A DNA stretch of 64,000 nucleotides from a virus (IMGVR_UViG_3300045747_000694:42165-106164); one strand, 5' to 3'; counted from the first letter of the stretch, positions 1,625-57,204 are shown. Program-made: numbers and translations. Notes: generated by a model from the letters alone, not told the origin.

Positions 1625-4600
1625 ATGGCCCTCGTATACCCGCTGGTCAACGACACCACTGGGCAGTTCGAAGAGCCCATCAACTACCAGGCCGACAGCC
1701 TGGTGGCTGGTGGTCTCTACGTTCAGAAGACGACGACCAGTCTCACCACCCCCACCTCAACGACGGGCCTCACCTACGACGGCACGAACACCTTCGTGGT
1801 CCTCAAGACCGAGGGCACGAAGATCTCCTTCCAGGTCGCCGGGAGCGAGCTCGCCACAGTCGACGGCGGCGGGATCGACGCTCTGTCCTACGACTCGCTG
1901 ACGAGCGTGCAGCTGAACATCGGCGTCACCAACGCCACCTCGCTCGTACTTGGCAAGACAGCGGTCCCTACAACGGTGATGAGCACGCTGAAGCTCGTTA
2001 CGGGGGACGGCTCTTCCACCTACACCACGCCGCAGGTCAGCCTGGGCTACGCGGGGTCCAACCAGTACCCGCACTTCATCCACACCAGGCACAACACGGT
2101 GGCTGCCAACAGCGCCATCGACTTCTACGTCAACGACGGGACGCTCGCAGGAGTCTTCCCCACCAACGCCACCCTCTCCGGCTTCATGGACTACCAGGGG
2201 TGGAACGGCAACGTGATGGGCCCCGCGGCCGCATCCCTCAAGCTCAAGGGCTTGATGGTGGATGGTGCCTCTGCGGTCAGCATCATCAACGACTCCCCTG
2301 CCTACTCCACGGCCGGGGCGAAGCTCCTCTCGGTTCGCAACAACACCGTGGAGAAGATGTACGTCGACAAGGATGGAGGCGTGTACTCGCAGGCAGGCTT
2401 CTCTGCCCTCGGCGGGTACTTCGTCCTCTCCTCTGGTGGCTCGTTCTTGGGGTACGCAGGACAGGCTGCCCGCATGGAAGGCCGGATGGTCGACGGCTCA
2501 ACCGCCGTCGGCAACGTGCTCGACACCTTCGCCATCACGTACTCGACGGCAGGAGCAAAGCTCGTCTCGTTCCGCAACGCAGGGACGGAGAAGGCCTACG
2601 TCGACAAGGACGGCAAGTTCTGGTCTGCCGGCTCCGGAGTTGCCACGATCCCCTACGTGCAGAGCAAGGGGATGAACCTCATCGCCAACGGCACGGGGCT
2701 CCTTGGCACCAACTACAACTTCTCGAGCTTCACCTTCACCGGGGCGGAAGCCTACGGCGCTCCTGGCAGCTTCTACTCCGACACCCTGAGCGGTGGCTAC
2801 TCCAACGACGAACTGCTCCCAGTCGACCCGGGCAAGTACTACGAGCTTCGGCTGTGGGCGAAGGCAGTGTCGGCCGCGTCGCCAGTGCACGCCTACTTCG
2901 GCGGTTCGTTCTTCGACGCTGACCAGCTCAGCCTCTTGCCCTACTTCCATATGCGGGTGGCTGGGACCGACACCACCCTCGCCGCCCCCTTGAAGGTGGG
3001 TGACACCACCATCACGCTGACGAGCAGCGCGAACTGGTACCTCGGCTCGACGACGTACGTGCGCCAGATCATCATCTGGGGCTACAAGAACTCCTTCGGC
3101 TACCAGTACGCGCCCTACACGTACAGCCGGTACACCACCAACACCCTCGGCGCGCCCTGGAGCTCGGGGGCTTGGGCGCAGACCACAGGCATCTCTGGCA
3201 ACGTCATCACGTTGGCTGCCCCTTGGCCTGCCTCCCACAACAACCCAGACGATCCAACCAACGGCTGGCCTGCCGGGACGCCGGTCTCGAACTCCAGCTC
3301 TGGGGGCACCTTCAAGTACTTCGCCGCGGCCAACGTCACAACGGCTGCGACATGGCTCGAGTACCGAGGACAGATCGGCTCTCTCGACTTGAGCGGTAAC
3401 AACGACACCTACTCGTTCCCGCCAGGTTCGGCGTACATGAAGCTCCTGTTCCTGTTCAACCGGGACACGGGGGCCACCGCGAGCCGCACCTACCTCTCGA
3501 ACATCTGGTTCAGCGAGATGACTTCGCTGACTATGCTCACACCGGCCAACAGCGCCTCGGCGGGCACGACGATCGTGAACTCGCCTGCTCTCACGATGCG
3601 CGGCCAGTACTGGAACGGCTCGGCTTCGGTCAACATCGACGCGAGCCTCGTCCACGTCGTGCAGACCACGGGGCCCACCACCAGGCTGGCCTTCAACGTG
3701 GCCGGTGCAGAGCGCGCCTCGGTGGACTCGGGCGGCACGGTCACTGCTTCCTACTACGCCTCGTCCATCGGCTGGATCTACTCGAGCACTGCTGCCACCC
3801 CGATGAAGGTGCGCGGCAATGCGGACGCCACAGGCTCCATCGCTGTTCAGATCGGCAACCAGACCACCCTCACGGGGGGCAGAATCGTTTCCTTCTGCAT
3901 CGACTCGTCGATGGCGACGGAGAAGGCCTCCATCGACTACACCGGTGCCTTCTTCGGGTACAGCTACGACGCACTGATCGGGCAGGGGCTGACCATCGGA
4001 GGCACCAACGCCACTACGGTCACGTTGGGCAAGAACGGCGTTGGAACGACCGCAGCTGGGGCGCTGACCGTCGTTGGCGGTGGGACGCTCGGTTGGTCGC
4101 CCTTCATGATCACCGGCACGCAGCCGGACGTCCTGTACGGCGGTCAGGTCACCAACATCTACGGCTTCCTCGGTACCGGTGCGTACTACGCCAGCCTCAA
4201 CTGGCGCTCTCCAACGACCTACGCGTCGAACATCCGCTTCGGAGGCTCCGGCGGCACGCTGGGCAACATCGAGTTCACCACCGACACAGGTCTCACGGCG
4301 AACACCAACTACACGCCGACGGTGAGGATGACTGTTGCTGCCAATGGCACGATCGCCATCGTCGGTTCGGTCACTGCTGCCTCGATCTCTCTCGGCGGCA
4401 CCAGCATCCTCGCAGGCTTCAACGATCGCACGACCAGCACGCTCGGCTTCGTCGACGGCACTCGCGTCTTCACTCTCTCGACGGGTAGCTCCTTCGTCTT
4501 CTGGGCAAACAACGTCAAGTACACGAAGAGCACCAGCCAGACCGTCACCATTGCCAACACGGTCGGTCAGCACTTCATCTACGAAGATGCCACTGGCACA

Positions 4601-7600
4601 CTCGTCGAGAGCACATCCCCGTGGAGCATCGACAGCGACCAGATCGCCCCCGTCGCCACCGTCTACTGGGATGGCGCGAAGGGCGTGATCGGCGACGAGC
4701 GCCACAATGCCTTCCGCAATCGCCAGGCGCACGTCTACCTGCACAACACCCGCGGCACTGCTTACGACTCTGGCCTCGCCGGCACCTTCACCAACACCAC
4801 GCTCTCCGTCGCCACGGGCGTCATCTGGGACGAGGACATCAAGTTCTCGCTGACTGGTCCGTTCACCGCCTGCCGCCTCTGGTACACCACGACCGGCGGT
4901 ACGGTGATGACGTCGAACACGGCGAGCACCACGCCGTATGCGGTGAACACTGGCACGCTCCAGTATGACAACGCCGGCACGCTTACCAATGTCGCGGCCA
5001 ACAGCTACGTCGTCAACTGGGTCTACGCGACGAACGACAAGGACTACCCGATTGCAGTGGTGGTCAGTCAGGCCGTCTACACCACACTGATCGGCGGCGC
5101 TCGACAGGCGACGCAGCCCACGTTCCCGAATCTCAACACGAGAGAGTGGAAGCTCCTCTACAGCATCACGTATCGCAACGTCGCCGGGGTCGTCACCTAT
5201 ACGGAGCAGACCGACTACCGCAACGTCTCCTCTCTCCCGAATGCTGGCGTCACCTCACTGCCTGCGAGCTCTGTCACTGTCACGCCCGCTGGCAGCTTCA
5301 CTGGCGCGGCGAACGTGCAGGCCGCCCTCGAGATCCTCGACGCGGTGAAGAGCACGACGGGGCCGACCGGGCCGCAAGGCGCCACCGGACCGGTAGGGCC
5401 GCAGGGTGTGACTGGTGTGACGGGGCCGACGGGGGCACGGGGCGCAACCGGCGTCGACGGAGTCACGGGCGTCACCGGCCCGACAGGCGCGCGAGGAGCC
5501 ACCGGGGTCACGGGGGCTACTGGCCCCATCGGACCTCAGGGCGTGACCGGAGCTACTGGTCCCGTCGGCCCACAGGGCGCCACTGGCCTTCAGGGCATCC
5601 AGGGCTTCACCGGCGTGACTGGTGCTACCGGACCCGTTGGCCCACAAGGAGTGACGGGAGCCACAGGCCCCGTCGGACCGCAGGGGCCGACGGGCGCAGC
5701 CATCACCGGCGCACAGGGGATCCAGGGGCCGACCGGGGCCGCGATCACAGGAGCGGTTGGTCCCCAAGGGCCGACAGGCGTCACCGGCGCTCGCGGTGCA
5801 GATGGTGTGACGGGAGCTACCGGCCCCACCGGGCCCGTTGGCGCGCAGGGAGTGACTGGGTGGACCGGGCCTACCGGGGCACGCGGTGCGACGGGAGTGG
5901 ACGGCGTCACGGGCGTGACCGGGCCCACAGGAGCTCGGGGCGCTACCGGCGTCACTGGAGCTCAAGGCATTCAGGGCATTCAGGGAGTGACGGGCTTCAC
6001 TGGCCCGCAGGGAGCACAGGGGCCAACTGGTGCCGCCATCACTGGGCCGCAAGGAGTGACTGGGGCAACTGGGCCCGTGGGGCCTCAAGGGCCCACTGGT
6101 GCTCTCGGCCCCACCGGCGCCGGCAGCTTCCCCAACGGCGCGAGCGGCTACGTCCAGATCCATGGCGGCGCCATCTTCGACAGCAGCGCGAACTTCTTCT
6201 ACACGAAGCACAACAACACGCTCAACGTCAGCACCATCGACGCCGTCAGCCCGAACCCTCTGACCCTCCTGGGCAGCGCGACGGGTGGCGCGACGGGTGG
6301 CGCGCTCATCTTCGATCAGACTCCGGCGATCACGGTCTCGGGCGGCAAGCTCGTCTCCTTCCGCAACGCTGGAGTGGAGAAGGCGTACCTCGACATGTCG
6401 GGCTACCTCGTCACCTCCGGCGGGGCAACCATCACCGGAACCTTGGACGTTCTCGGTGGGTGGGTTCGCGCCGGCACGCTCATCTCGACGGACATCCAGC
6501 CCTACAACGCTGGTCCGGTCACCATCACCGGAACTGGCACCACTAGCGGCACTGCCGTCTCGGTCATCGTCCACAACCTCACCAACCTCACCACTGCGGG
6601 CGACAAGCTGATGTCGTTCCGTTCGGTGGGCAGCACCGAGGTCGCTTACGTCGACTACGTTGGCACCGTCTACGGCGCCGGGTTCAACACATCAGGTGCC
6701 ACGTACGGTGCGAGCACGGCTTCGATGACGTACTTGTACGCCTCGAACGCCAACATCGACTTGATTCAGTCGAACACCAGCGTCACTCTCCAACTCGTTG
6801 GTCGGGTGGTTACGGGCTCTTCGGCCATTGGCGTCACCATCAACAACGGCAACTCACTCACCACCGCTGGTGCGAAGCTCGTCTCCTTCCAGAACGCGAC
6901 GGTGGAGAAGCTCTACATCGACAAGGATGGCTTCCTTCATGGCGTTGGCACCACAGGCGGAGTGAACGTCGTCATCGACACCAACTCTACCTTCACCGGC
7001 TCCGGCAAGCTCCTGAGCGTCCGCAACACGGGCGGGGATGTCTTCACGGTGGATGCTGGTGGCTTCGTCACAGCCAACGAGTACCGCCCCAACTCTGCGA
7101 CCTCGACGGTGACCTTGGCGGGCACTGTTGCGGCGGGTACCACTACCGGTTCGGTCATCCTCAACACGACCACGGCGCTGACCACGTCAGGTGCCAAGAT
7201 TGTCTCGATTCGCAACGCCGGAACGGAGGTCGCGTCGATCTCGAAGGAAGGCACCATCACCGGCAGCGACATCTACGCCATCCGGTCCGGCGCCACTACC
7301 ACGGGGGTCATCTACCTTGGCAGCGGCGGCGCTCGGTACCTCTACTACGACGGGTCTCAGTACGTCCTGAATGGCGCGGCACTGACGGTCGGAGGCATCG
7401 TCTACGCCACCGACTTCTCGGCATCGTCCGACTACCGGCTGAAGAGCGACATCATCACCATCCCGGATGCGCTGGAGCGGGTGATCTCGCTGCGGGGCGT
7501 CAACTACACACGCAAGGACGACGAGAACAAGCACTTGCACATGGGCGTCATCGCCCAGGAGGTGGAAGCGATTGTTCCAGAGGTGGTCAGCACCGACGAG

Positions 7601-7705
7601 AGTGGTATGAAGTCCGTGAGCTACCAGAGCCTGGTGGGCATCCTCATCGAGGCGATCAAGGGCCTGAAGGCCGAGATCATGGAGCTCAAGGAGGACTTGG
7701 CATGA
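1625..7705 (+). CDS. giant tail fibre/tailspike (2,026 aa) with collagen-like region and C-terminal S74 intramolecular-chaperone auto-processing domain
   Basis: ATG 1625 follows GAGGGAAG. Long beta-rich Gly/Thr/Ser sequence. A ~30-aa motif [22 protein letters not shown] recurs at least 7 times. The Gly-X-Y region lies at ~5350-6125. The C-terminus SDYRLKSDI...[17 protein letters not shown]...[16 protein letters not shown] matches the endosialidase/tailspike S74 chaperone domain. Confidence 0.85.
5350..6125 (+). repeat. collagen-like Gly-X-Y triplet-repeat region (~258 aa) inside the fibre gene, with an internal duplicated block
   Basis: Continuous [19 protein letters not shown]... triplets. 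The block [33 protein letters not shown] occurs twice (~5430 and ~5880). Confidence 0.85.
7337..7705 (+). other. peptidase S74 / intramolecular chaperone domain of the fibre (predicted autocleavage at the Ser of SSDYRLK)
   Basis: Consensus SDxRLKxNI...GxIAQEV...LIEAIKxL recognised by eye in the last ~120 aa. Confidence 0.75.
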
Positions 7706-8826
7706 GCAAGCGCCGTGAGTTCCACATGGACTTGAACCTGACCAACCAGTGCAGCCTGCGCTGCACCTACTGCGTCGAGACGGGCCTCTTCAAGGCCAAG
7801 AACTGCGACGAGATCATCCCCCAGTTCTACGAGTGGATCGACCGCTTCATCGTGTCCGACTTCTTCAAGGCCTCGTTCGACGTCCTCCACATCTCTCTCT
7901 GGGGAGGCGAGCCCACATTGGAGTGGGATACCATCTTCAGGCTGATGGAACGGTACCTCGGGGACAACCGCGTGATGTTCATGCTGTACACGAACGGCTA
8001 CAGCGTTCCTGGGTCTCTTCGGAAGATGATCGTCAACGCGAGCGAGCTCCACAAGAAGGACCCCGACAAGCACTCGGAGTTCCGTCTTCAGGTCTCCTAC
8101 GATGGCCAGCCCATCCACGACCTGTGCAGAAGGACAGTGGACGGCAAGCCCACCGCTGACCAAGTGCTCAAGACGTTGCGGTGGGCACAGGACGCAGGCG
8201 TGGAGCATAGCGTCAAGTCCACCATCACCTTCGACACGCTCAAGCACCTCTACGAGGCATGGGCCGACGTGAACGCCATCAGCAGCGGGAGGTACTCTTA
8301 CTTCCCCACGCTGGACTACGTTCACTTTGCCACCCCGGAGCAGGTCAAGCTGCTGGACGGGTACATCGAGGAGATGAAGACGGGCATGAAGAGGATCGCC
8401 GCGGCGCTGCTGACCGCGAAGCGTGAGGGGAAGGCCGCCTCCGAGTTCAGGTGGTTCCGCCCCTCTCGAGACAAGTGCGCGGCCGGCATTCGCCTGTTCG
8501 GCCTGGATGTGGATGGCAAGATCTACTCTTGCCACTCGGCCATGTACTCGCCGGCCAAGAGCGACCACCTCATCGGCACGCTCGCTGACGACTTCTCCAT
8601 CTTCGAGAAGTCTGTGAGCAAGCACCCCAACACCCGCCCGGCGGAGTGCTCGTCCTGCGACGCGATCTTCTGCGTCAGCTGCAACACCACCAAGTACCCG
8701 CTCTCTTCCAAGGGAACCTACGAGGAGAGGTGGTCGGACTACACGGTCGTCGAGAGCTCGTGCCGCGTCTACCGAGAGATGGGCAAGGTCACCAGAGCCT
8801 ACATCCAGTTGAGGGATGCGACCTGA
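7702..8826 (+). CDS. radical SAM enzyme with C-terminal SPASM domain (anSME-like peptide/protein-modifying maturase)
   Basis: CSLRCTYC (CxxxCxxC) at residues 17-24. GGEPTL SAM-binding motif. C-terminal Cys clusters [19 protein letters not shown] ... [14 protein letters not shown] typical of SPASM. The start ATG overlaps the fibre stop (ATGA). Confidence 0.85.
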
Positions 8827-9518
8827 TGGCCACGATGAGGCACAAGATTCGCGGTGACGCGTTCTTGTTCGACATCATGCAGCCCATCCTCGATCTGAGC
8901 TACTCCGGGGACCTGGCGGGTGCCTTGGCCCAGCTGGAGGCGCTCGAGATGCCAGCGACGCTCGACAGGGGACGGGACCTCCACGTCTGGTTCCAGGTCA
9001 GCGCAGAGAAGCTGCGCCACTACGTCAAGCTGTCGCGCTCGACCGATGCCGCCCGCACCGCCTCGCAGATGATCCGGGTCGACGTCGTCAAGCTCGAGGC
9101 GATGGTTGATGAGTTCTGGGCCTGGGGCTTCACCATCGGACTCCTCCAGTACATGAGGTCGATCGACGCGACCAACTTCATGACCAATGCGGAGCTGAAG
9201 CCCTACCGGGACTTCATCGAGAGCACCAAGCACCTCGATGACAACCCCAAGGGGCCGTTCATCTACGACATCTACCTCCTGAGCATGCGGTGTGCGCTGG
9301 ACATGAGGAGCAGTGCCCCGACGGACGAGGTCTTCAACGAGCTCCTCTCCAAGATGACCGTGCCGAACATCGACCTCCTGAAGTTCGGCCACATCCTGTT
9401 GTTGGACTACGTCGCGAGAGCGCTTACTATCCTTTGCAAGCTCTTGGGCAAAGATGCCGCGGTGGCTGAGCAGGTGGCGACTCTTTCGGCCCTCATCAGC
9501 AACTTGCCGCACGACTAG
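8826..9518 (+). CDS. hypothetical helical protein, coupled by overlapping stop/start codons between the rSAM gene and the Cys-repeat/Hint gene
   Basis: ATG overlaps the rSAM stop (TGATG). 230 aa with no recognisable motif. Candidate partner or recognition protein. Confidence 0.5.
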   Translation: MATMRHKIRGDAFLFDIMQPILDLSYSGDLAGALAQLEALEMPATLDRGRDLHVWFQVSAEKLRHYVKLSRSTDAARTASQMIRVDVVKLEAMVDEFWAWGFTIGLLQYMRSIDATNFMTNAELKPYRDFIESTKHLDDNPKGPFIYDIYLLSMRCALDMRSSAPTDEVFNELLSKMTVPNIDLLKFGHILLLDYVARALTILCKLLGKDAAVAEQVATLSALISNLPHD

Positions 9519-9526
9519 GACCGACC

Positions 9527-10189
9527 ATGCTACCGACAACTGGGACCATCAGGCTGAGGGGGGCTACGAGTACCGATACGAATGCGGTCAGTGTCGAGAT
9601 CTTTGGCACGCCCACCAACCTCAACCTCACGGCAACCATCGTCCGAACGCTGTTCGCTCTGGCGAGTGGCACGATCAAGCTGACGGATGGGTACGGCCAC
9701 TGCTACTCGAACTGCGGCTGCGATGCGAACTGCGGGTGTGATGTGAACTGCACCTGCGACGCCAATGGCGGCTGTATCTGCGACCTCTGCCCGTCCCCCG
9801 ACGTGCCCCTCGAGATGGCGGATGGCTCGGAGAAGCCAGCTGGCGAGATCGTGGTCGGGGACCTGGTCACCGCGTGGGACGAGGAGAAGCGTATCCTCAG
9901 CCCTCGCCGCATCACGTACGTCAAGCGGGGCGAGAACGTCAGGATGAGTCTCCTCCTGAGCAACGGCAAGTCTGGTGAGTTCGCCGTGAACCATCGCTTC
10001 CTCACGATCAGCAACACGTGGGCGGAGCTTCGGGACCTGAAGGTGGGCGACATCCTCTCGACTGGCGTCTCAGTGCTGGGGACGATGCTGACTGGCCCAG
10101 GCCCTGTGATCTCCATGCTCGTGGATGAGCTGCACACCTACGTCACGCTCGGCGTGGTGTCCCACAACGCCAAGTGCGGTAACCTCTGA
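9527..10189 (+). CDS. Cys-repeat peptide fused to a Hint (Hedgehog/intein-like, BIL-type) autoprocessing domain
   Basis: Residues 59-88 are CYSNCGCDANCGCDVNCTCDANGGCICDLC (10 Cys; CDANCG-type repeats). A Hint domain follows from Cys88: C-PSPDVPLEMADGSEKPAGEIVVGDLV...NHRFLT...ELHTYVTLGVVSHN. Blocks A, B and F/G are recognisable and it ends in HN. Confidence 0.75.
   Translation: MLPTTGTIRLRGATSTDTNAVSVEIFGTPTNLNLTATIVRTLFALASGTIKLTDGYGHCYSNCGCDANCGCDVNCTCDANGGCICDLCPSPDVPLEMADGSEKPAGEIVVGDLVTAWDEEKRILSPRRITYVKRGENVRMSLLLSNGKSGEFAVNHRFLTISNTWAELRDLKVGDILSTGVSVLGTMLTGPGPVISMLVDELHTYVTLGVVSHNAKCGNL
9788..10168 (+). other. Hint domain portion of the 9527..10189 protein
   Basis: N-terminal Cys, a TxxH-like block (NHRFLT) and a C-terminal VSHN. 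Confidence 0.65.
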
Positions 10190-10196
10190 GGTCACC

Positions 10197-10496
10197 ATGC
10201 TGAATGTCAACATCACCAACGACGACCTGACCGATGTGTCGCTCAGCACCTTCGAGCCGCGTGAGCGCGCCTCCATCGAGGCCGCTGTGCTCCTCATCGC
10301 GGCCAAGGAGGTGATCGCTTCCTACGAGCCCCTCTACGGTGAGATGCTGAGCGTGCAGGCCCACCATCTGCTGGGCCCGCTCAGGAAGAGGAAGCACGAC
10401 GAGGCCTTGGCGGCCCAGGCCAGACTGAAGGACGAAGTGGACGGCATCGCCAACGACATCCAGAAGTTCACCATCGAAGGGAGCAAGAAGCCATGA
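10197..10496 (+). CDS. hypothetical protein (100 aa)
   Basis: ATG 8 nt after the upstream stop; same operon. Confidence 0.45.
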   Translation: MLNVNITNDDLTDVSLSTFEPRERASIEAAVLLIAAKEVIASYEPLYGEMLSVQAHHLLGPLRKRKHDEALAAQARLKDEVDGIANDIQKFTIEGSKKP

Positions 10497-10639
10497 ACAC
10501 CAACGACGCCCCGAAGCTCGAGCCGGTCACTGGCACCAAGACCGGGTGGGCTGCCATCCCTGCCCCCACCAAGTACGTCGTCGGAGCGGTGGTGGCTTTC
10601 GTCATCATCGTCGCCGTGGTCGCGCTGAAGTTCAGGTAA
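10493..10639 (+). CDS. small single-pass membrane protein (48 aa; holin-like?)
   Basis: ATGA overlap with the upstream stop. Hydrophobic stretch VVGAVVAFVIIVAVVAL. Below the ORF-track cutoff. Confidence 0.35.
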   Translation: MNTNDAPKLEPVTGTKTGWAAIPAPTKYVVGAVVAFVIIVAVVALKFR

Positions 10640-10644
10640 CCGCC

Positions 10645-10950
10645 ATGGCCCTTCAGCTCAACCTCACCGCAGAGAAGACCGGCGTCGGCGTCGCCTCCCC
10701 GGAGGCGTATGCGCGCATCGTGCACCTCGCCTTCGACACCAAGACGGGCAAGGTCACGCTGTCCGTCGACATCCACTACGACCAGGCGGCCCGGGCGGCC
10801 AACAAGTCTCCCGTCAGCGGAGGGATCTACTCCGGCTTCGTGGGCATCGACATGCCCAGCATCGACGTGGCCCTGGCCGAAGGGGTGCGTGCCGTGCTCT
10901 ACGCCTGGCTGAAGACCCAGGCCGACTTCACCGGCGCCACGGACGTCTAG
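10645..10950 (+). CDS. hypothetical protein (101 aa)
   Basis: ATG 10645; coding-like composition. Confidence 0.45.
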   Translation: MALQLNLTAEKTGVGVASPEAYARIVHLAFDTKTGKVTLSVDIHYDQAARAANKSPVSGGIYSGFVGIDMPSIDVALAEGVRAVLYAWLKTQADFTGATDV

Positions 10951-11683: not shown

Positions 11684-11775
11684 TCGATCCTCCTTTCAGA
11701 GGTGAGCTTCTACACTACGAGGCATGGGTGTGGGTGCACAGAAGCGTATTGCGTACCATGTGCGCGGTACTTGAA

Positions 11776-12142
<367 letters not shown>

Positions 12143-47073: not shown

Positions 47074-47210
47074 GGGCTAAGGAAACAATCACGGCCACCG
47101 CCTTCTGGCGCAAGGTGCCCCGTCACCGCGGTGGTCCGGCCGACTCGCCGCCTCTCGCGCGACTGCACGAGTCCTGCCCTACCTTCTGCCACTGAACTGA
47201 GGATCTTTGC

Positions 47211-47534
47211 ATGGCGACATTCACCGAGCTGCACGCAAGACTGGTCGACGCGAGGAACCGCAAGGCGGTTCTCCAGATGCTCGTCGAGCACATCGACAAC
47301 AACTTCCTCCCCACCGGGCCGGCGAAGGCCGAGCGGATGCTCCTCAACGACGAGAGGATCCCCGTCCCGCAGGCAATGTTCGAGGCGGTCATCGCCGACA
47401 CTCTCGACGCGGAGATCAAGCAGCTCGATCAGGAGATCGCCCGAGTCACCAACACCGAGCTCGCGCAGAAGGGCGCCGCCCCGAAGGCCGAGCCGGAGAA
47501 GAAGACCAAGAAGTCCCACAAGGAGGCAACGTGA
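47211..47534 (+). CDS. hypothetical protein
   Basis: Complete ORF. Confidence 0.45.
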   Translation: MATFTELHARLVDARNRKAVLQMLVEHIDNNFLPTGPAKAERMLLNDERIPVPQAMFEAVIADTLDAEIKQLDQEIARVTNTELAQKGAAPKAEPEKKTKKSHKEAT

Positions 47535-48088
47535 GCGAAGAGACGGCAGCAGTGGTGGAGGTTGGCAGCCCCGGGACCATCGAGGTCCCTCCGGACGCCG
47601 CCGAGAGGAAGCCCACCAAGCTCGAGGAGAAGCGCCGGAAGATCTACATCGACCGGATGCAGCGCCACATGGCCAAGGGGATGACGGCCGAGGCGGCGCA
47701 CATGAAGATCCAGGAGGAGGACTACGATCGCCTCCCCATCGAGGCCAAGCTGAAGCGCCTCGAGGTGGCCTGCATGCAGGCCATCCAGCGTCTCGCCCAG
47801 GAACTGGGCAGCCTCCAGAACAACGACCAGGTCATCGCCGACGCGATGGACTCCAACTTCCGCGCCATCACCAAGGCGCTCGTGAAGCTCGGCGTCTCCG
47901 GCGAGGAGCAGGTTGCCTTCCTCAAGGAGGCCGAGGTCGAGATCAAGGCCGACCGCGAGAACCGCCAGAAGGTGATGGAGCAGCACGCGGCGGCCATCAA
48001 GGAGGAGGCGGAGAAGGCTCTCGTCGAGAAGACCATCGACCAGCCCGGCGAGGCCACCGTGCCCGACGGCGCCACGGAGTTCGCATGA
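47531..48088 (+). CDS. hypothetical protein (GTG start)
   Basis: Complete ORF. Confidence 0.4.
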   Translation: MSEETAAVVEVGSPGTIEVPPDAAERKPTKLEEKRRKIYIDRMQRHMAKGMTAEAAHMKIQEEDYDRLPIEAKLKRLEVACMQAIQRLAQELGSLQNNDQVIADAMDSNFRAITKALVKLGVSGEEQVAFLKEAEVEIKADRENRQKVMEQHAAAIKEEAEKALVEKTIDQPGEATVPDGATEFA

Positions 48089-48624
48089 GCAGCTTCGACA
48101 ACGCCCTGACCGTCATCCTGAAGCACGAGGTGGACCCCGTCGCCGGGCCGTACTGCAACGTGCCGGAGGACAAGGGTGGCCCCACCTGCTACGGCGTCAC
48201 CATCGCCGAGTACCGCCGCTTCAAGCCCGGCGCGACGGTGGAGGACCTGAAGAACATCCCGATGGCGGACGTCTACACCATCTTCAAGGCCAACTACTGG
48301 CAGCCGCTCGGTCTCGACGGCGTGATCGACCAGACGGTGGCGACGAAGCTCGCCGACATCGCCATCAACGGTGGTCCCGGTGCTGCCTCCGCCCTCGCCC
48401 AGCGCGCCTGCATCGCCTGCGGACAGCCGCTGAACGTGGACGGCTGGATCGGGCCCAAGACGCGGGACGCCATCAACAGCATCCCGCCGAAGGACTTCAT
48501 GGTGGCCCTGAAGGAGCAGCAGCGGGACTTCTACCTGGACATCGTCCAGCACGACAAGACCCAGCTGACCTTCCTCTACAACTGGATGCGCCGGGCCGAG
48601 TGGCCGCTGGCGGGCCAGGCCTGA
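48085..48624 (+). CDS. endolysin: GH108 lysozyme-like domain plus PG_binding_3 domain
   Basis: ILKHEVDPVAG...DKGGPTCYGVT (GH108 N-terminal signature) and a C-terminal peptidoglycan-binding-like half. Confidence 0.7.
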   Translation: MSSFDNALTVILKHEVDPVAGPYCNVPEDKGGPTCYGVTIAEYRRFKPGATVEDLKNIPMADVYTIFKANYWQPLGLDGVIDQTVATKLADIAINGGPGAASALAQRACIACGQPLNVDGWIGPKTRDAINSIPPKDFMVALKEQQRDFYLDIVQHDKTQLTFLYNWMRRAEWPLAGQA

Positions 48625-55971: not shown

Positions 55972-57204
55972 CTAGTCCTCGATGTCGATGATGCGGCCAG
56001 GAAGGAACCGCTTCTCGGGTGTGATGATCTCCTTCTGTGTGGGCTCTTGTGGGACAGCCGCCATTCCCGTATCGGCGCTGAGGACCTCCCCGTACAGGTT
56101 GCGAAGGTCCTCATCCGAGATGCCGTTGCGGTCGACGTACTGGCGAGAGGTCTCGTCCGCTCCGACGGCGAAGTCGATGCCGATGTAGTCGGCGGCCCGA
56201 GGCAGCCGGATGGTGGCCTCGACGTTCATGACCCCATGCCGCCGGAGCCGCTCCATCGTTGCTTGTGCTTCTGCTTCGATGCGCGCTCGCGCCTGCGGGG
56301 TGTCCCGCTCTCCGACGAACCCCTGCAAACGCTCAGCGAGAGCACGCTGAGCGAAGGCGATGGAGCCGGCGGCATCTCCTACGGAAGGAAGGGTTGGAGG
56401 CTCCTCCGGTGCCGCGGTGTACTGCTCGTAGAAGATGTCGTTGTTGACGTTCATCGCTGCACGGAGGTTCTGCTGGCGAGCAGCCTCGGCTTCGCGGCCC
56501 CCGGCGAGCAGTCGTGTCTGCTGAGCTTCTTGCAAGAACTCTCTCGGTACCTGCATCGCGCCCAGCATGGTCCTCCGGGCAGCATCCTGCTGCTCTCTCA
56601 TCCGGGCTTCGTCTGCGGGCGAGGCCGTCATGGGTCGGAAGATCTCCATCAGGAGCTGAGACCCTCCCCGCTGCGGAGTGGGGCGCTCGAGGGCGCGAGC
56701 CTGGTCCCAGATCTCGAGAGGCACGGGGAGGATCTCGGTACGCACTCTCTTGCGGCGAGCGTACTCGATGCAGTTGGCAGTCCCTCCTACCGACCCGTTC
56801 CAGACGGCAAGGAGGAGGGAGGCATTGTCCACCATCCAGGCGTTGCGACGGTAGAGGAGGTTGGCGCGGTACTCGTGGGTGTCGGTAACGACGTGAACGC
56901 TGTCGGCCTCGTTGAGGAGGCGCTGGTAGTGACGCCTCGAGGCGTCAGGCCACCGGCTGTCCCACCCGTGGAAGGGCACGACAGCAGTCCACTTGATCCT
57001 CTCCTCGATGCAGATCTCCGCCGCCCACTGGTCCACTCCGAGCGCCATGCCGGAGAGGATCATCAGCTCATCCCCCGTGCTGACCCTGTCGGCCTGCTCA
57101 CGGAAGGCAGTACGAAGCACCGCCTTCACGTTCAGGTAGATGGGATTCGGAAGGTAGTAGCCGCCAAGCTTCGGCGGCCGGTGACCTGTGATGGCGACGA
57201 TCAT
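55972..57204 (-). CDS. YpsA/DUF1273-type SLOG-domain protein with Gln/Ala/Arg-rich C-terminal extension
   Basis: MIVAITGHRPPKLGG matches the YpsA MKVLAITGYKPFELG. Confidence 0.5.
   Translation of the reverse strand: MIVAITGHRPPKLGGYYLPNPIYLNVKAVLRTAFREQADRVSTGDELMILSGMALGVDQWAAEICIEERIKWTAVVPFHGWDSRWPDASRRHYQRLLNEADSVHVVTDTHEYRANLLYRRNAWMVDNASLLLAVWNGSVGGTANCIEYARRKRVRTEILPVPLEIWDQARALERPTPQRGGSQLLMEIFRPMTASPADEARMREQQDAARRTMLGAMQVPREFLQEAQQTRLLAGGREAEAARQQNLRAAMNVNNDIFYEQYTAAPEEPPTLPSVGDAAGSIAFAQRALAERLQGFVGERDTPQARARIEAEAQATMERLRRHGVMNVEATIRLPRAADYIGIDFAVGADETSRQYVDRNGISDEDLRNLYGEVLSADTGMAAVPQEPTQKEIITPEKRFLPGRIIDIED

What the first reader, a model, noticed from the sequence alone, without database searches (positions are those of the whole stretch)
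7702..10189. Tail-fibre-coupled radical SAM/SPASM enzyme with a Cys-repeat peptide fused to a Hint autoprocessing domain
The 2,026-aa fibre gene stop overlaps the start of a radical SAM/SPASM gene (ATGA); its motifs CSLRCTYC and GGEPTL resemble those of anaerobic sulfatase maturases. That gene in turn overlaps a 230-aa helical protein (TGATG). The next gene has a ~58-aa N-terminal region, then ten Cys in 30 residues (CYSNCGCDANCGCDVNCTCDANGGCICDLC), and then a clear Hint domain (MADGSEKPAGEIVVGDLV...NHRFLT...LHTYVTLGVVSHN). SPASM enzymes typically install thioether or C-C crosslinks on Cys-rich RiPP precursors. I know of no described RiPP-like precursor whose C-terminus is a Hint domain. A Hint N-terminal thioester could release, or transfer to a nucleophile as in Hedgehog, the modified Cys-rich peptide. 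The partner could be the fibre, given the coupling by overlapping stop/start codons. This may be a phage-encoded, fibre-associated peptide maturation or attachment system.
Basis: partly seen in the sequence, partly recalled or inferred. Interest (0 to 1): 0.92.

Follow-up and report, generated by a model that had tools for sequence, protein, structure and literature searches.

The report
Radical-SAM-modified, self-cleaving phage fibre protein
A large phage's tail-fibre operon encodes a small fibre-associated protein whose cysteine-repeat end is most likely cross-linked by its own radical SAM enzyme and then freed by a built-in self-cutting (Hint) domain. It is one variant of a widespread phage system that I could not find described in the papers I could search.

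Summary

The Hint fold is real: AlphaFold pLDDT is about 90 and Foldseek matches BIL and mini-intein structures. It has Cys1, the block-B His and a C-terminal His-Asn, but no +1 nucleophile, so it is a cleaving domain, not a splicing intein.

Comparative data change the picture in four ways:
- **Hint module.** The same module caps the C-termini of many phage tail-fibre and J-like proteins.
- **N-terminal 58 aa.** This is not a RiPP leader. It is a very common phage module, usually encoded directly after S74-terminated fibre genes.
- **rSAM clade.** The enzyme belongs to a phage-specific clade. In 64 of 80 IMG/VR loci it sits beside a CxC-repeat protein.
- **Repeat position.** In those proteins the repeats end two or three residues before an S74 autocleavage site, or before the stop codon.

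Hint is therefore most simply read as an alternative self-removing cap. A published virion proteome detected one family member.

The chemistry (probably Cys thioethers), the cleavage and the fibre attachment are all inferred, not shown.

The parts
1625..7705 (+). Fibre protein, 2,026 aa, with collagen-like repeats and a C-terminal Peptidase_S74 self-cleaving chaperone (SDYRLK motif). It has only 2 Cys.
   Evidence: An S74-terminated fibre lies directly upstream of the cassette in L007 and L046, and of the variant cassette in L211-213.
7702..8826 (+). Radical SAM/SPASM enzyme, 374 aa. Cluster Cys are C17/C21/C24, with GGEPT at 68-72. The seven C-terminal Cys (259, 277, 316, 319, 324, 327, 354) fit a SPASM pattern. 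There is no N-terminal RRE domain.
   Evidence: All these Cys are invariant, or nearly so, in 19 homologues. 29% identity to the Campylobacter phage CP220 rSAM.
8826..9518 (+). All-helical 230-aa protein of unknown function, found only in this type of cassette.
   Evidence: Conserved at 33-41% identity in L007, L003 and L046. No Pfam, NCBIfam, PHROG or PDB match. AlphaFold on the single sequence gave low confidence, pLDDT 46.
9527..9700 (+). Residues 1-58 of the precursor: a widespread phage N-terminal module with consensus MALNSSGxISLGG..ELG..ISLND..VRTLxG..SGxISLSxxYGKS.
   Evidence: Profile A2 gave 148 hits, all at protein N-termini. More than 542 loci in IMG/VR. 36 of 68 evaluable loci have an S74-terminated ORF ending within 300 nt upstream. 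Modelled as disordered when alone.
9701..9787 (+). Residues 59-87: Cys-repeat core CYSNCGCDANCGCDVNCTCDANGGCICDL, built from CxC[D/N]xx units. Proposed substrate of the rSAM.
   Evidence: invariant Cys. Co-occurrence of CxC repeats with this rSAM clade. P0007, which lacks the repeats, has no rSAM within 10 kb upstream or 0.95 kb downstream.
9788..10168 (+). Residues 88-214: Hint (BIL-like) autoprocessing domain. Cys88 is residue 1, His156 is the block-B His (AVNH), and it ends His213-Asn214. The predicted scissile bond is Leu87-Cys88.
   Evidence: The same module sits at the C-terminus of tail-fibre and J-like proteins.
10169..10189 (+). Six-residue tail AKCGNL plus the stop codon. Residue +1 is Ala, so there is no splicing nucleophile. 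Cys217 at +3 is conserved in 6 of 8 close homologues.
10197..10496 (+). Small acidic helical protein, 99 aa, with no Cys: the fifth gene of the operon and the last member of the conserved cassette.
   Evidence: 34-70% identity in L007, L003 and L046. There is tentative similarity to ORFs of about 75 aa just upstream of distant phage rSAMs (hhalign probability 46%, E 2e-4).

Best explanation
The operon makes a fibre together with a small protein associated with that fibre.

The 220-aa precursor has three parts:
- a common phage N-terminal module (residues 1-58);
- a CxC[D/N]xx repeat core (residues 59-87);
- a C-terminal Hint domain (residues 88-214).

Step 1 (inferred). The co-translated radical SAM/SPASM enzyme modifies the Cys repeats. 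The most likely chemistry is Cys-S to carbon thioether cross-links onto the neighbouring Asp/Asn, as PapB, NxxcB and QhpD do. The 230-aa and 99-aa helical proteins may substitute for the missing RRE.

Step 2 (inferred from fold and motifs). The Hint domain carries out an N-to-S acyl shift at Leu87-Cys88. The thioester is resolved, releasing an 87-residue product whose stapled Cys knot is its extreme C-terminus.

Step 3 (inferred from context). This product is a virion component associated with the fibre.

Hint here does the job that the S74 intramolecular chaperone does in sister families: it is a self-removing C-terminal cap placed immediately after the Cys repeats.
For: Translational coupling:
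- The five genes overlap or are separated by at most 8 nt.

Cassette conservation:
- The rSAM / helical / Cys-Hint / small-protein cassette is conserved in L007, L003-5 and L046, and lies behind an S74 fibre in L007 and L046.
- A second architecture (L211-213) keeps the link: S74 fibre, then an N-module / Cys-patch / Hint protein, then an rSAM/SPASM enzyme.

Pairing of the rSAM with the repeats:
- 102 IMG/VR loci encode relatives of the rSAM.
- Of the 80 retrieved, 64 carry a same-strand ORF with at least 4 CxC and at least 7 Cys in 40 aa. By looser criteria the count is 68, of which 30 start within 300 nt after the rSAM.
- None of 38 control phage loci (561 kb) does.
- P0007, a homologue with the N-module and Hint but no Cys repeats, has no adjacent rSAM.

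Equivalent cleavage position:
- The S74 class reads ...CxCNYS|DxRLK, with PF13884 confirmed.
- The tail-less class ends ...CxCNY* or ...CxCNYS*.
- The Hint class reads ...CxC[D/N]x|C.

Hint fold and catalytic residues. The same Hint module caps proteins matching tail-fibre, central-tail-fibre-J and tail-protein PHROGs.

Enzyme type:
- The best NCBIfam models are thioether-forming SPASM maturases (PapB 3.3e-19, CcpM, CXXX-repeat, QhpD, SCIFF).
- PapB links Cys to the carbon next to the Asp/Glu carboxylate (PMC12373016).

Virion location of a family member:
- Campylobacter phage IBB_35 gene 3-9 (60,318 Da) was detected by MS in virions (PMC3322345 Table S2).
- It is the (CNYCTCD)n-repeat protein encoded 2.3 kb from the rSAM homologue, beside a gp63-like fibre-attachment gene and baseplate genes.
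Against: - No chemistry has been observed. The cross-link type, the cleavage and virion incorporation are all inferred for this protein.
- The rSAM scores far below the cut-off of every curated maturase family, so its reaction may be different.
- CxC repeats resemble metallothionein-type metal sites.
- In block B the usual Thr is Ala (AVNH), so cleavage may be slow or conditional.
- The fibre's own S74 domain already matures its tip, so where an extra protein would dock is unknown.
- In L003 the genes just upstream of the cassette are small non-fibre genes, although the contig ends 3.4 kb upstream.
- The IBB_35 proteome hit has only 2.6% coverage, and that protein is only a distant relative with no N-module and no Hint.
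Confidence: 0.55

Rival explanations
1. Hint-mediated ligation. The Leu87 thioester is not hydrolysed. A nucleophile attacks it instead: a Lys or the new terminus of the fibre, a host surface molecule, or the peptide's own amine, which would cyclise it. The stapled peptide would then be covalently attached, as Hedgehog attaches cholesterol or as proposed for the Tetrahymena BIL-ubiquitin-like proteins.
For: - The best structural match is the BIL2 domain of the Tetrahymena BUBL locus.
- The Hint has no +1 nucleophile, so the thioester must be resolved some other way.
- The gene is translationally coupled to the fibre gene.
- A conserved Cys at +3/+4 of the tail has no explanation.
Against: - In sister families the same position is occupied by an S74 protease domain or by a stop codon. 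Neither can ligate anything.
- The same Hint module ends large tail proteins whose C-terminus has no evident acceptor.
- No acceptor motif was identified.
Confidence: 0.12
2. Diffusible RiPP. The cassette makes a small thioether-stapled peptide, such as a bacteriocin, a signal or a host-takeover factor, that is released in the infected cell or outside it and is not part of the virion.
For: - The rSAM/SPASM enzyme is most similar to RiPP maturases.
- The substrate region is short and modelled as unstructured.
- Self-cleavage would release a 9-kDa product.
Against: - The N-module is shared with hundreds of phage proteins carrying adhesin-like or fibre-like C-terminal parts, encoded right after fibre genes.
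- Sister substrates end in S74 domains, which are typical of trimeric fibres.
- One relative was found in purified virions.
- The cassette has no export or immunity genes.
Confidence: 0.1
3. Metal or disulfide knot. The CxC repeats bind Zn, Cu or Fe-S, or form disulfides, like a metallothionein. The rSAM would then act on something else: the fibre, a cofactor or a host metabolite.
For: - CxC and CxxxC spacing is typical of metallothioneins (from general knowledge, not tested here).
- P0038 has the N-module plus a Cys-rich region with no rSAM in the 7-kb contig seen.
- The Campylobacter phage literature treated these rSAMs as metabolic genes (PMC2853527).
Against: - The tight, repeated pairing of this rSAM clade with CxC-repeat genes (64-68 of 80 loci against 0 of 38 controls) is hard to explain if the two are unrelated.
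- The fibre has only 2 Cys.
- The enzyme has the full SPASM Cys set of peptide-modifying enzymes.
Confidence: 0.12
4. anSME-like oxidation. The enzyme converts Cys to formylglycine, or performs another non-cross-linking change such as epimerisation, in the repeats.
Against: - The score is 45 bits against a cut-off of 349, and the match covers only residues 14-206.
- PapB matches better and over the full length.
- No C/S-x-P/A-x-R motif occurs in the core.
- No sulfatase was found among the window genes scanned.
Confidence: 0.05

Closest known systems
PapB/PapA (freyrasin) and other ranthipeptide or Cys-repeat rSAM/SPASM maturases (CcpM, CXXX-repeat TIGR04115, NxxcB, SCIFF)
   Same: A radical SAM core plus a 7-Cys SPASM domain encoded next to a substrate with short, regularly repeated Cys motifs that include Asp/Asn. 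PapB is the best-scoring curated model. PapB links Cys to the carbon next to an Asp/Glu carboxylate (PMC12373016).
   Different: - The score is far below the family cut-off (69 against 340).
- There is no RRE domain.
- The repeat unit is CxC[D/N]xx, not CX3D.
- The substrate is fused to a phage structural N-module and a self-cleaving domain.
- The genes sit in a phage fibre operon, with no protease or transporter genes.
QhpD/QhpC of quinohemoprotein amine dehydrogenase
   Same: An rSAM/SPASM enzyme that staples Cys to Asp/Glu inside a protein subunit which stays part of a larger assembly, rather than making a free peptide. This is from general knowledge. The model TIGR03906 matches at 2.1e-9.
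   Different: It is a bacterial periplasmic enzyme subunit. It has no Hint or S74 cap and no repeats, and the match covers only the rSAM core.
Bacterial intein-like (BIL) domains, PT-HINT, and the Tetrahymena BUBL BIL2 domain
   Same: A Hint fold with Cys1, the block-B His and a C-terminal His-Asn but no +1 nucleophile. These are autoprocessing rather than splicing domains. They are the best structural and profile matches.
   Different: - Here the domain is at the extreme C-terminus with a 2-10 residue tail, so the cargo is N-terminal. PT-HINT releases a C-terminal toxin.
- Block-B Thr is Ala.
- The setting is phage tail proteins.
Peptidase_S74 intramolecular chaperone of endosialidases and tail fibres
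   Same: A self-cleaving C-terminal domain removed after assembly. In sister families it sits at exactly the position that Hint occupies here, 2-3 residues after the last CxC. The window's own fibre ends in one.
   Different: The fold and chemistry are unrelated (Ser-Lys dyad against a Cys thioester). S74 acts in trimers; whether this Hint does is unknown.
T-even gp38-type tail-fibre adhesins
   Same: A small protein encoded just after the fibre gene. Some N-module proteins carry the Gly-rich GP38 domain (PF05268, 1.6e-8, P0035).
   Different: - The window protein has no GP38 domain.
- The N-module has no detectable similarity to any solved structure.
- Attachment to the fibre tip has not been tested.
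Hedgehog C-terminal autoprocessing domain
   Same: A Hint domain at the C-terminus that releases the N-terminal part through a thioester (structural match 1at0/6tyy).
   Different: There is no sterol-recognition region, and no evidence of transfer to a nucleophile.

Membership tests
Radical SAM superfamily (PF04055) | CxxxCxxC cluster motif, a GGE SAM-binding motif and a Pfam score above the gathering threshold | tested here: met
   C17-x3-C21-x2-C24 and GGEPT are invariant in 19 homologues. PF04055 scores 37.8 bits against a cut-off of 29.5.
SPASM-domain rSAM enzymes | A C-terminal 7-Cys motif (CX9-15GX4C ... CX2CX5CX3C ... C) binding two auxiliary clusters | tested here: inconclusive
   C259-X12-G-X4-C277, C316-X2-C319-X4-C324-X2-C327 and C354 are conserved, and several SPASM maturase models align through this region. 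However, the spacing is CX2CX4CX2C, and Pfam SPASM gives no hit for this protein. Only the homologue P0019 carries PF13186. The clusters themselves are not testable here.
PapB-family ranthipeptide maturase (NF047865) | Score above the equivalog cut-off and a CX3D/E-repeat substrate | tested here: not met
   69.3 bits against a cut-off of 340. The repeat is CxC[D/N]xx. It may work like PapB, but it is not a member.
Anaerobic sulfatase maturase (TIGR03942) | Score above the cut-off and a C/S-x-P/A-x-R substrate in a sulfatase | tested here: not met
   45.1 bits against a cut-off of 349, matching the N-terminal half only. The motif is absent from the core, and no sulfatase was found among the window genes scanned.
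Hint superfamily (inteins, BIL, Hedgehog) | The Hint beta-fold | tested here: met
   The AlphaFold model has pLDDT of about 90 for residues 89-215. Foldseek gives E 7e-9 and probability 1.0, with target-normalised TM 0.7-0.77 to BIL2, DnaB and RecA mini-inteins. The profile matches PDB Hint chains at 6e-8. Pfam models score only below their cut-offs: Intein_splicing 18.5 against 35.8, Hint 14.2 against 29.7.
Hint superfamily | Catalytic residues: a nucleophile at position 1, the block-B (T)xxH His, and block-G His-Asn | tested here: met
   Cys88 is conserved in every family member and in every Hint-capped tail protein. His156, His213 and Asn214 are invariant. The block-B Thr is replaced by Ala153.
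Canonical protein-splicing intein | A Cys/Ser/Thr at +1 of the C-extein and a host protein restored by splicing | tested here: not met
   Residue +1 is Ala/Val/Ile/Met/Leu (Thr in two of the sequences seen). The tail is only 2-10 residues, and there is no interrupted host protein.
Self-cleaving Hint (BIL-like) domain | Demonstrated autoproteolysis at the N-terminal junction | not testable with these tools
   This needs expression of the precursor and of the C88A, H156A and N214A mutants.
RiPP (ribosomally synthesised, post-translationally modified peptide) | A leader or follower recognised by the modifying enzyme, a modified core, and proteolytic release | tested here: inconclusive
   A core-like repeat and built-in release are present. 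The N-terminal part, however, is a common phage structural module rather than a dedicated leader, and the modification has not been observed.
Phage rSAM plus CxC-repeat protein system (proposed here; rSAM = phrog_1802, repeat protein of CP220 = phrog_26958) | An rSAM of this clade encoded next to a protein whose CxC repeats lie at the mature C-terminus | tested here: met
   phrog_1802 matches at 3.6e-30. The pairing occurs in 64-68 of 80 loci. The window core ends one residue before the Hint Cys1.

The most novel reading that the evidence does not exclude
The Hint thioester at Leu87 is used for ligation, not just cleavage. On this reading the phage covalently attaches a radical-SAM-stapled Cys-knot adhesin to its own fibre, or to a host surface molecule. 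That would be an enzyme-free, Hedgehog/BUBL-like protein conjugation step in virion assembly, on top of a class of virion modification (radical SAM cross-links in fibre tips) that has not been described.
Probability: 0.12. Interest if true: 0.95.

Novelty: new variant of a known kind. Interest (0 to 1): 0.8.

Why it matters
If the model holds, radical SAM cross-linking is not confined to small secreted peptides. Phages would be using it to harden the tips of their fibre or adhesin proteins. At least 102 IMG/VR loci encode this rSAM clade, including the Campylobacter Firehammervirus phages, whose many rSAM genes have been unexplained since 2010.

This would give:
- a concrete, testable function for a phage rSAM family;
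- a new source of thioether-stapling enzymes acting on simple CxC repeats;
- a natural case in which three different solutions (Hint, S74 protease, stop codon) expose the same modified C-terminus.

It also shows that a BIL-type Hint domain is a common self-removing cap of phage tail proteins. That is relevant to annotating receptor-binding proteins and to engineering them.

Tried and rejected
- **DNA search of GenBank phages.** Only the S74 end of the fibre resembles Burkholderia phage fibres. The phage itself is new.
- **tblastn of the Cys/Hint protein in GenBank phages.** It found only true inteins in terminase, NinG-like and other genes. The best hit, MT840030, is a LAGLIDADG intein.
- **Helical 230-aa protein.**
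  - No hits in Pfam, NCBIfam, PHROGs, PDB, tblastn or the large protein search.
  - The single-sequence model is too poor to search with.
- **anSME reading.** Rejected.
- **'Leader peptide' reading of residues 1-58.** Rejected in favour of a common phage module.
- **N-module against the PDB.** Nothing found, so homology to the gp38 N-terminal domain is not shown.
- **Host assignment through the genome scan.** It found only a Holophagaceae MAG contig and Sphingomonas prophages, all carrying Hint-capped tail proteins rather than the cassette.
- **P0018 (45% identical rSAM).** It lies in a three-rSAM cluster, but no DNA was available to read.
- **Small 99-aa protein.** Similarity to the small ORFs upstream of distant rSAMs is only tentative.
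- **Literature.** Eight searches found no paper that links phage rSAMs to fibre Cys repeats, or Hint domains to RiPP precursors or tail-fibre C-termini. Subscription-only papers were not searchable.


Full report
**1. What is in the window**

The window is part of a large, novel phage genome. The same protein sequences sit on a 153-kb JGI contig. The window also encodes a class II ribonucleotide reductase, an AAA ATPase, a GH108 lysozyme and a tmRNA. Nothing close exists in GenBank phages.

Between 10 and 10950 all genes are on the + strand and tightly packed:

| Gene | Coordinates | Size | Key features |
|---|---|---|---|
| Head-decoration-like protein | 10-1602 | 530 aa | - |
| Fibre | 1625-7705 | 2,026 aa | Collagen repeats, C-terminal Peptidase_S74 chaperone |
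| Radical SAM enzyme | 7702-8826 | 374 aa | [14 protein letters not shown] |
| Helical protein | 8826-9518 | 230 aa | No known relatives |
| Cys-repeat/Hint protein | 9527-10189 | 220 aa | Ten Cys in residues 59-88 |
| Small helical protein | 10197-10496 | 99 aa | No Cys |
| Unknown ORF | 10546-10950 | 134 aa | - |

The junctions are ATGA, TGATG, an 8-nt gap and a 7-nt gap, each with a purine-rich stretch upstream. The only addition is the conserved 99-aa gene.

**2. The enzyme**

- Pfam Radical_SAM is above threshold.
- Across 19 homologues the three cluster Cys, GGEPT and seven C-terminal Cys (259, 277, 316, 319, 324, 327, 354) are invariant or nearly so. This is a SPASM-like arrangement with slightly unusual spacing.
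- The best curated models are thioether-forming peptide maturases: PapB 3.3e-19 over the full length, CcpM, the CXXX-repeat family, anSME (N-terminal half only), Nif11, QhpD and SCIFF. Every one is far below its cut-off.
- The alignments start at model positions 86-99 for CcpM, SCIFF and QhpD. The protein therefore lacks the N-terminal peptide-recognition (RRE) domain those enzymes have.
- The best match overall is a phage family, phrog_1802 (3.6e-30). It includes the rSAM of Campylobacter phages CP220, CPt10 and IBB_35 (29% identity, E 2e-45).

**3. The Hint domain**

- AlphaFold with the 8-sequence family alignment models residues 89-215 at pLDDT of about 90 as an all-beta domain. Residues 1-88 fall below 50.
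- Foldseek against the PDB returns BIL2 of the Tetrahymena BUBL locus, DnaB, RecA and gp41-1 mini-inteins, the Clostridium thermocellum BIL domain and Hedgehog Hint, all at probability 1.0.
- A family profile finds a PT-HINT-containing chain and BIL2 at 6e-8 to 7e-7.
- Cys88, His156 (in AVNH, where inteins have TxxH), His213 and Asn214 are invariant.
- The residue after Asn is Ala/Val/Ile/Met/Leu (Thr in two sequences) and only 2-10 residues follow. This is therefore a BIL-like autoprocessing domain, not a splicing intein.

**4. The Hint module is a general cap of phage tail proteins**

A scan of IMG/VR with the family alignment gave 39 loci. Only one, L007 on a 198-kb contig, has the full 220-aa architecture.

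In about 34 others the same module, C-P-A-P-D-V-P-L-L-M-A-D-G ... H-T-Y-x-T-x-G-V-x-S-H-N plus a short tail, forms the last ~130 residues of proteins of 360-1,570 aa. It is usually preceded by a Gly-rich linker, and identity to the window Hint reaches about 50%. Those proteins match PHROGs for tail fibre, central tail fibre J and tail protein. Sphingomonas prophages and a Holophagaceae MAG carry them too.

**5. The N-terminal 58 residues are a common phage module, not a leader**

- A profile of residues 1-88, searched against 1.8 billion representative proteins, gave 148 hits at E ≤ 1e-3. All covered profile positions 2-60 and all lay at the very N-terminus of proteins of 70-900 aa.
- The consensus is MALNSSGxISLGG.TTGQSI.LELG....ISLND..VRTL.G..SG.ISLS..YGKS.
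- What follows varies: a Gly-rich GP38-adhesin domain (PF05268, 1.6e-8), Gly_rich_2, RCC1 repeats or a tail-protein C-terminus.
- Two hits have Cys repeats. P0139 is 73 aa and ends ...KCTCHTYTPCSCDGHCNCNNYT with no Hint. P0038 sits two genes after an S74 protein.
- IMG/VR holds more than 542 such loci.
- Of 68 evaluable loci, 36 have an S74-terminated ORF ending within 300 nt upstream of the N-module gene, and 10 more have one within 3 kb.

The window protein therefore belongs to a class of proteins that follow the fibre gene.

**6. The rSAM clade is paired with CxC-repeat proteins across phages**

IMG/VR has 102 loci encoding relatives at 25-34% identity, and 80 were retrieved.

Counts:
- In 64 of the 80, an ORF on the same strand has at least 4 CxC motifs and at least 7 Cys within 40 residues.
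- With looser criteria the count is 68, and 30 of these start within 300 nt after the rSAM stop.
- None of 38 control phage loci (561 kb, both strands) has such an ORF.
- The window has exactly one, the finding itself.

Repeat types:
- (CTCNCNY)n, or (CxCNxx)n such as CICNSDCSCNLVCACHNDCGCNY.
- The window family has (CxCDxN)n.

Some loci hold several rSAM genes or tandem arrays of repeat-protein paralogues.

**7. The same C-terminus is reached in three ways**

- **S74 class.** In 29 distinct repeat proteins the repeats run straight into ...CxCNYS|DxRLK, the start of a Peptidase_S74 chaperone. PF13884 was confirmed in three that were tested.
- **Tail-less class.** In 18 others the protein simply ends ...CxCNY* or ...CxCNYS*.
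- **Hint class.** In the window family the last CxC[D/N]x is followed by the Hint Cys1.

From general knowledge, S74 domains cut themselves off after the fibre has trimerised. The simplest reading is that all three designs deliver a mature protein whose extreme C-terminus is the Cys-repeat block, and that Hint is an interchangeable self-removing cap.

**8. Conservation of the cassette**

| Loci | Gene order |
|---|---|
| L007, L046 | S74 fibre, rSAM, helical, Cys/Hint, small |
| L003-5 | rSAM, helical, Cys/Hint, small (contig ends 3.4 kb upstream) |
| L211-213 | S74 fibre, N-module + beta domain + GCSSDCPSDACGCC + Hint (270 aa), then a 411-aa rSAM/SPASM |

P0007 has the N-module, an Ig-like insert and Hint, but no Cys repeats. 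No rSAM lies within 10 kb upstream or 0.95 kb downstream of it.

The 230-aa helical protein occurs only in the window-type cassette. The small protein may be related to the ~75-aa helical ORFs that precede many distant rSAMs, but this is tentative (hhalign probability 46%, E 2e-4).

**9. Experimental anchor from the literature**

The virion proteome of Campylobacter phage vB_CcoM-IBB_35 lists gene 3-9, a hypothetical protein of 60,318 Da, at 2.6% coverage (PMC3322345 Table S2). The tenth gene of contig 3 encodes a 534-aa protein with a calculated mass of 60,317 Da. It carries seven CNYCTC[D/N] heptads. It lies 2.3 kb from the rSAM homologue, next to a gp63-like fibre-attachment gene and baseplate genes.

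The original genome papers regarded the rSAM genes as metabolic (PMC2853527). I found no paper that connects them to this protein.

**10. Mechanism and confidence**

| Status | Steps |
|---|---|
| Shown | Gene order and coupling; rSAM/SPASM motifs; Hint fold and catalytic residues; family-wide co-occurrence; equivalent position of Hint, S74 and stop codon |
| Inferred | The rSAM modifies the repeats (about 0.8); the chemistry is Cys thioether to Asp/Asn (about 0.5); Hint cleaves at Leu87-Cys88 (about 0.7); the 87-mer is part of, or attached to, the fibre (about 0.6) |

Overall I put the combined model at 0.55.

The rivals are:
- thioester-mediated ligation;
- a diffusible RiPP;
- a metal or disulfide knot with an unrelated rSAM;
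- anSME-like oxidation.

**11. Novelty**

Each component is of a known kind. The following combinations appear undescribed in the literature I could search:
- a phage rSAM/SPASM clade dedicated to Cys-repeat virion or fibre proteins;
- those repeats placed directly before a self-removing domain;
- a Hint-capped variant fused to a common fibre-gene-following module.

I rate it a new variant of a known kind, of high interest. All functional steps still need experiments.

Noticed in passing
window 11774-12142 (-): A complete tmRNA gene (Rfam RF00023, 105 bits; tag peptide ANEPMFAQQLAAA) lies 1.3 kb downstream of the cassette in what appears to be a phage genome. It could be a phage-encoded tmRNA rather than an integration site, because phage-type genes continue on both sides.
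   Followed up: partly
window 30687-33332 (-): An 881-aa protein with Major Vault Protein shoulder (2.5e-27) and Vault_3 repeat (2e-9) domains. This is an unusual domain for a phage genome.
   Followed up: no
window 10169-10186 (residues 215-220 of the precursor): The short tail after the Hint His-Asn carries a Cys at +3/+4 (AKCGNL, AKQCPPGA, VKNCPPGV, AKNCPTYNVP) in 6 of 8 Cys/Hint proteins. The Hint-capped large tail proteins lack it. Possible roles are a redox trap, part of the rSAM substrate, or a nucleophile; none is established.
   Followed up: partly
L008-L041 (IMG/VR), L229-L231 (Sphingomonas genomes): A BIL-like Hint domain with a 2-10 residue tail ends many phage tail-fibre, central-tail-fibre-J-like and tail proteins, after a Gly-rich linker. 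I found no published description of this self-removing cap.
   Followed up: partly
L131-L210 (IMG/VR): The ~58-aa N-terminal module (MALNSSGxISLGG...YGKS) occurs in more than 542 viral contigs, usually directly after an S74-terminated fibre gene. Its C-terminal domains are highly variable (Gly-rich/GP38-like, RCC1 and others). It has no Pfam or PDB counterpart.
   Followed up: partly
L086 9798-12362; L114 9501-11558; L060 7153-8301: Tandem arrays of two to four paralogous short genes. In L086 and L114 each has (CTCNCNY)n repeats followed by an S74 start (...CNYSDE[QR][LV]K). The L060 pair ends within 12 residues of the repeats. All lie near the rSAM and look like a diversified set of mini-fibres.
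   Followed up: no
L048 2419-7456; locus of P0018 (no DNA); L120, L107: Distant relatives sit in clusters of three or more radical SAM genes next to fibre-like proteins with an ADLAExYT motif. This suggests multi-step modification in some phages. CP220-type phages have 11-12 rSAM genes (PMC2853527).
   Followed up: no
L066, L098, L087, L109 and other repeat proteins, N-termini: Many distant Cys-repeat proteins also begin with a Cys/His-rich stretch (MACSGSHCSNH...CSTNR). They contain a recurring I..LR..I..E..RR motif of unknown meaning.
   Followed up: no
window 55972-57204 (-), 47131-48624 (+), 59705-61864 (-): A YpsA/DprA-like SLOG protein, a 497-aa protein with GH108 lysozyme plus PG_binding_3 domains, and a class II (B12) ribonucleotide reductase 44% identical to those of mycobacteriophages. 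These fit a large lytic phage whose host is unknown and has high G+C.
   Followed up: no
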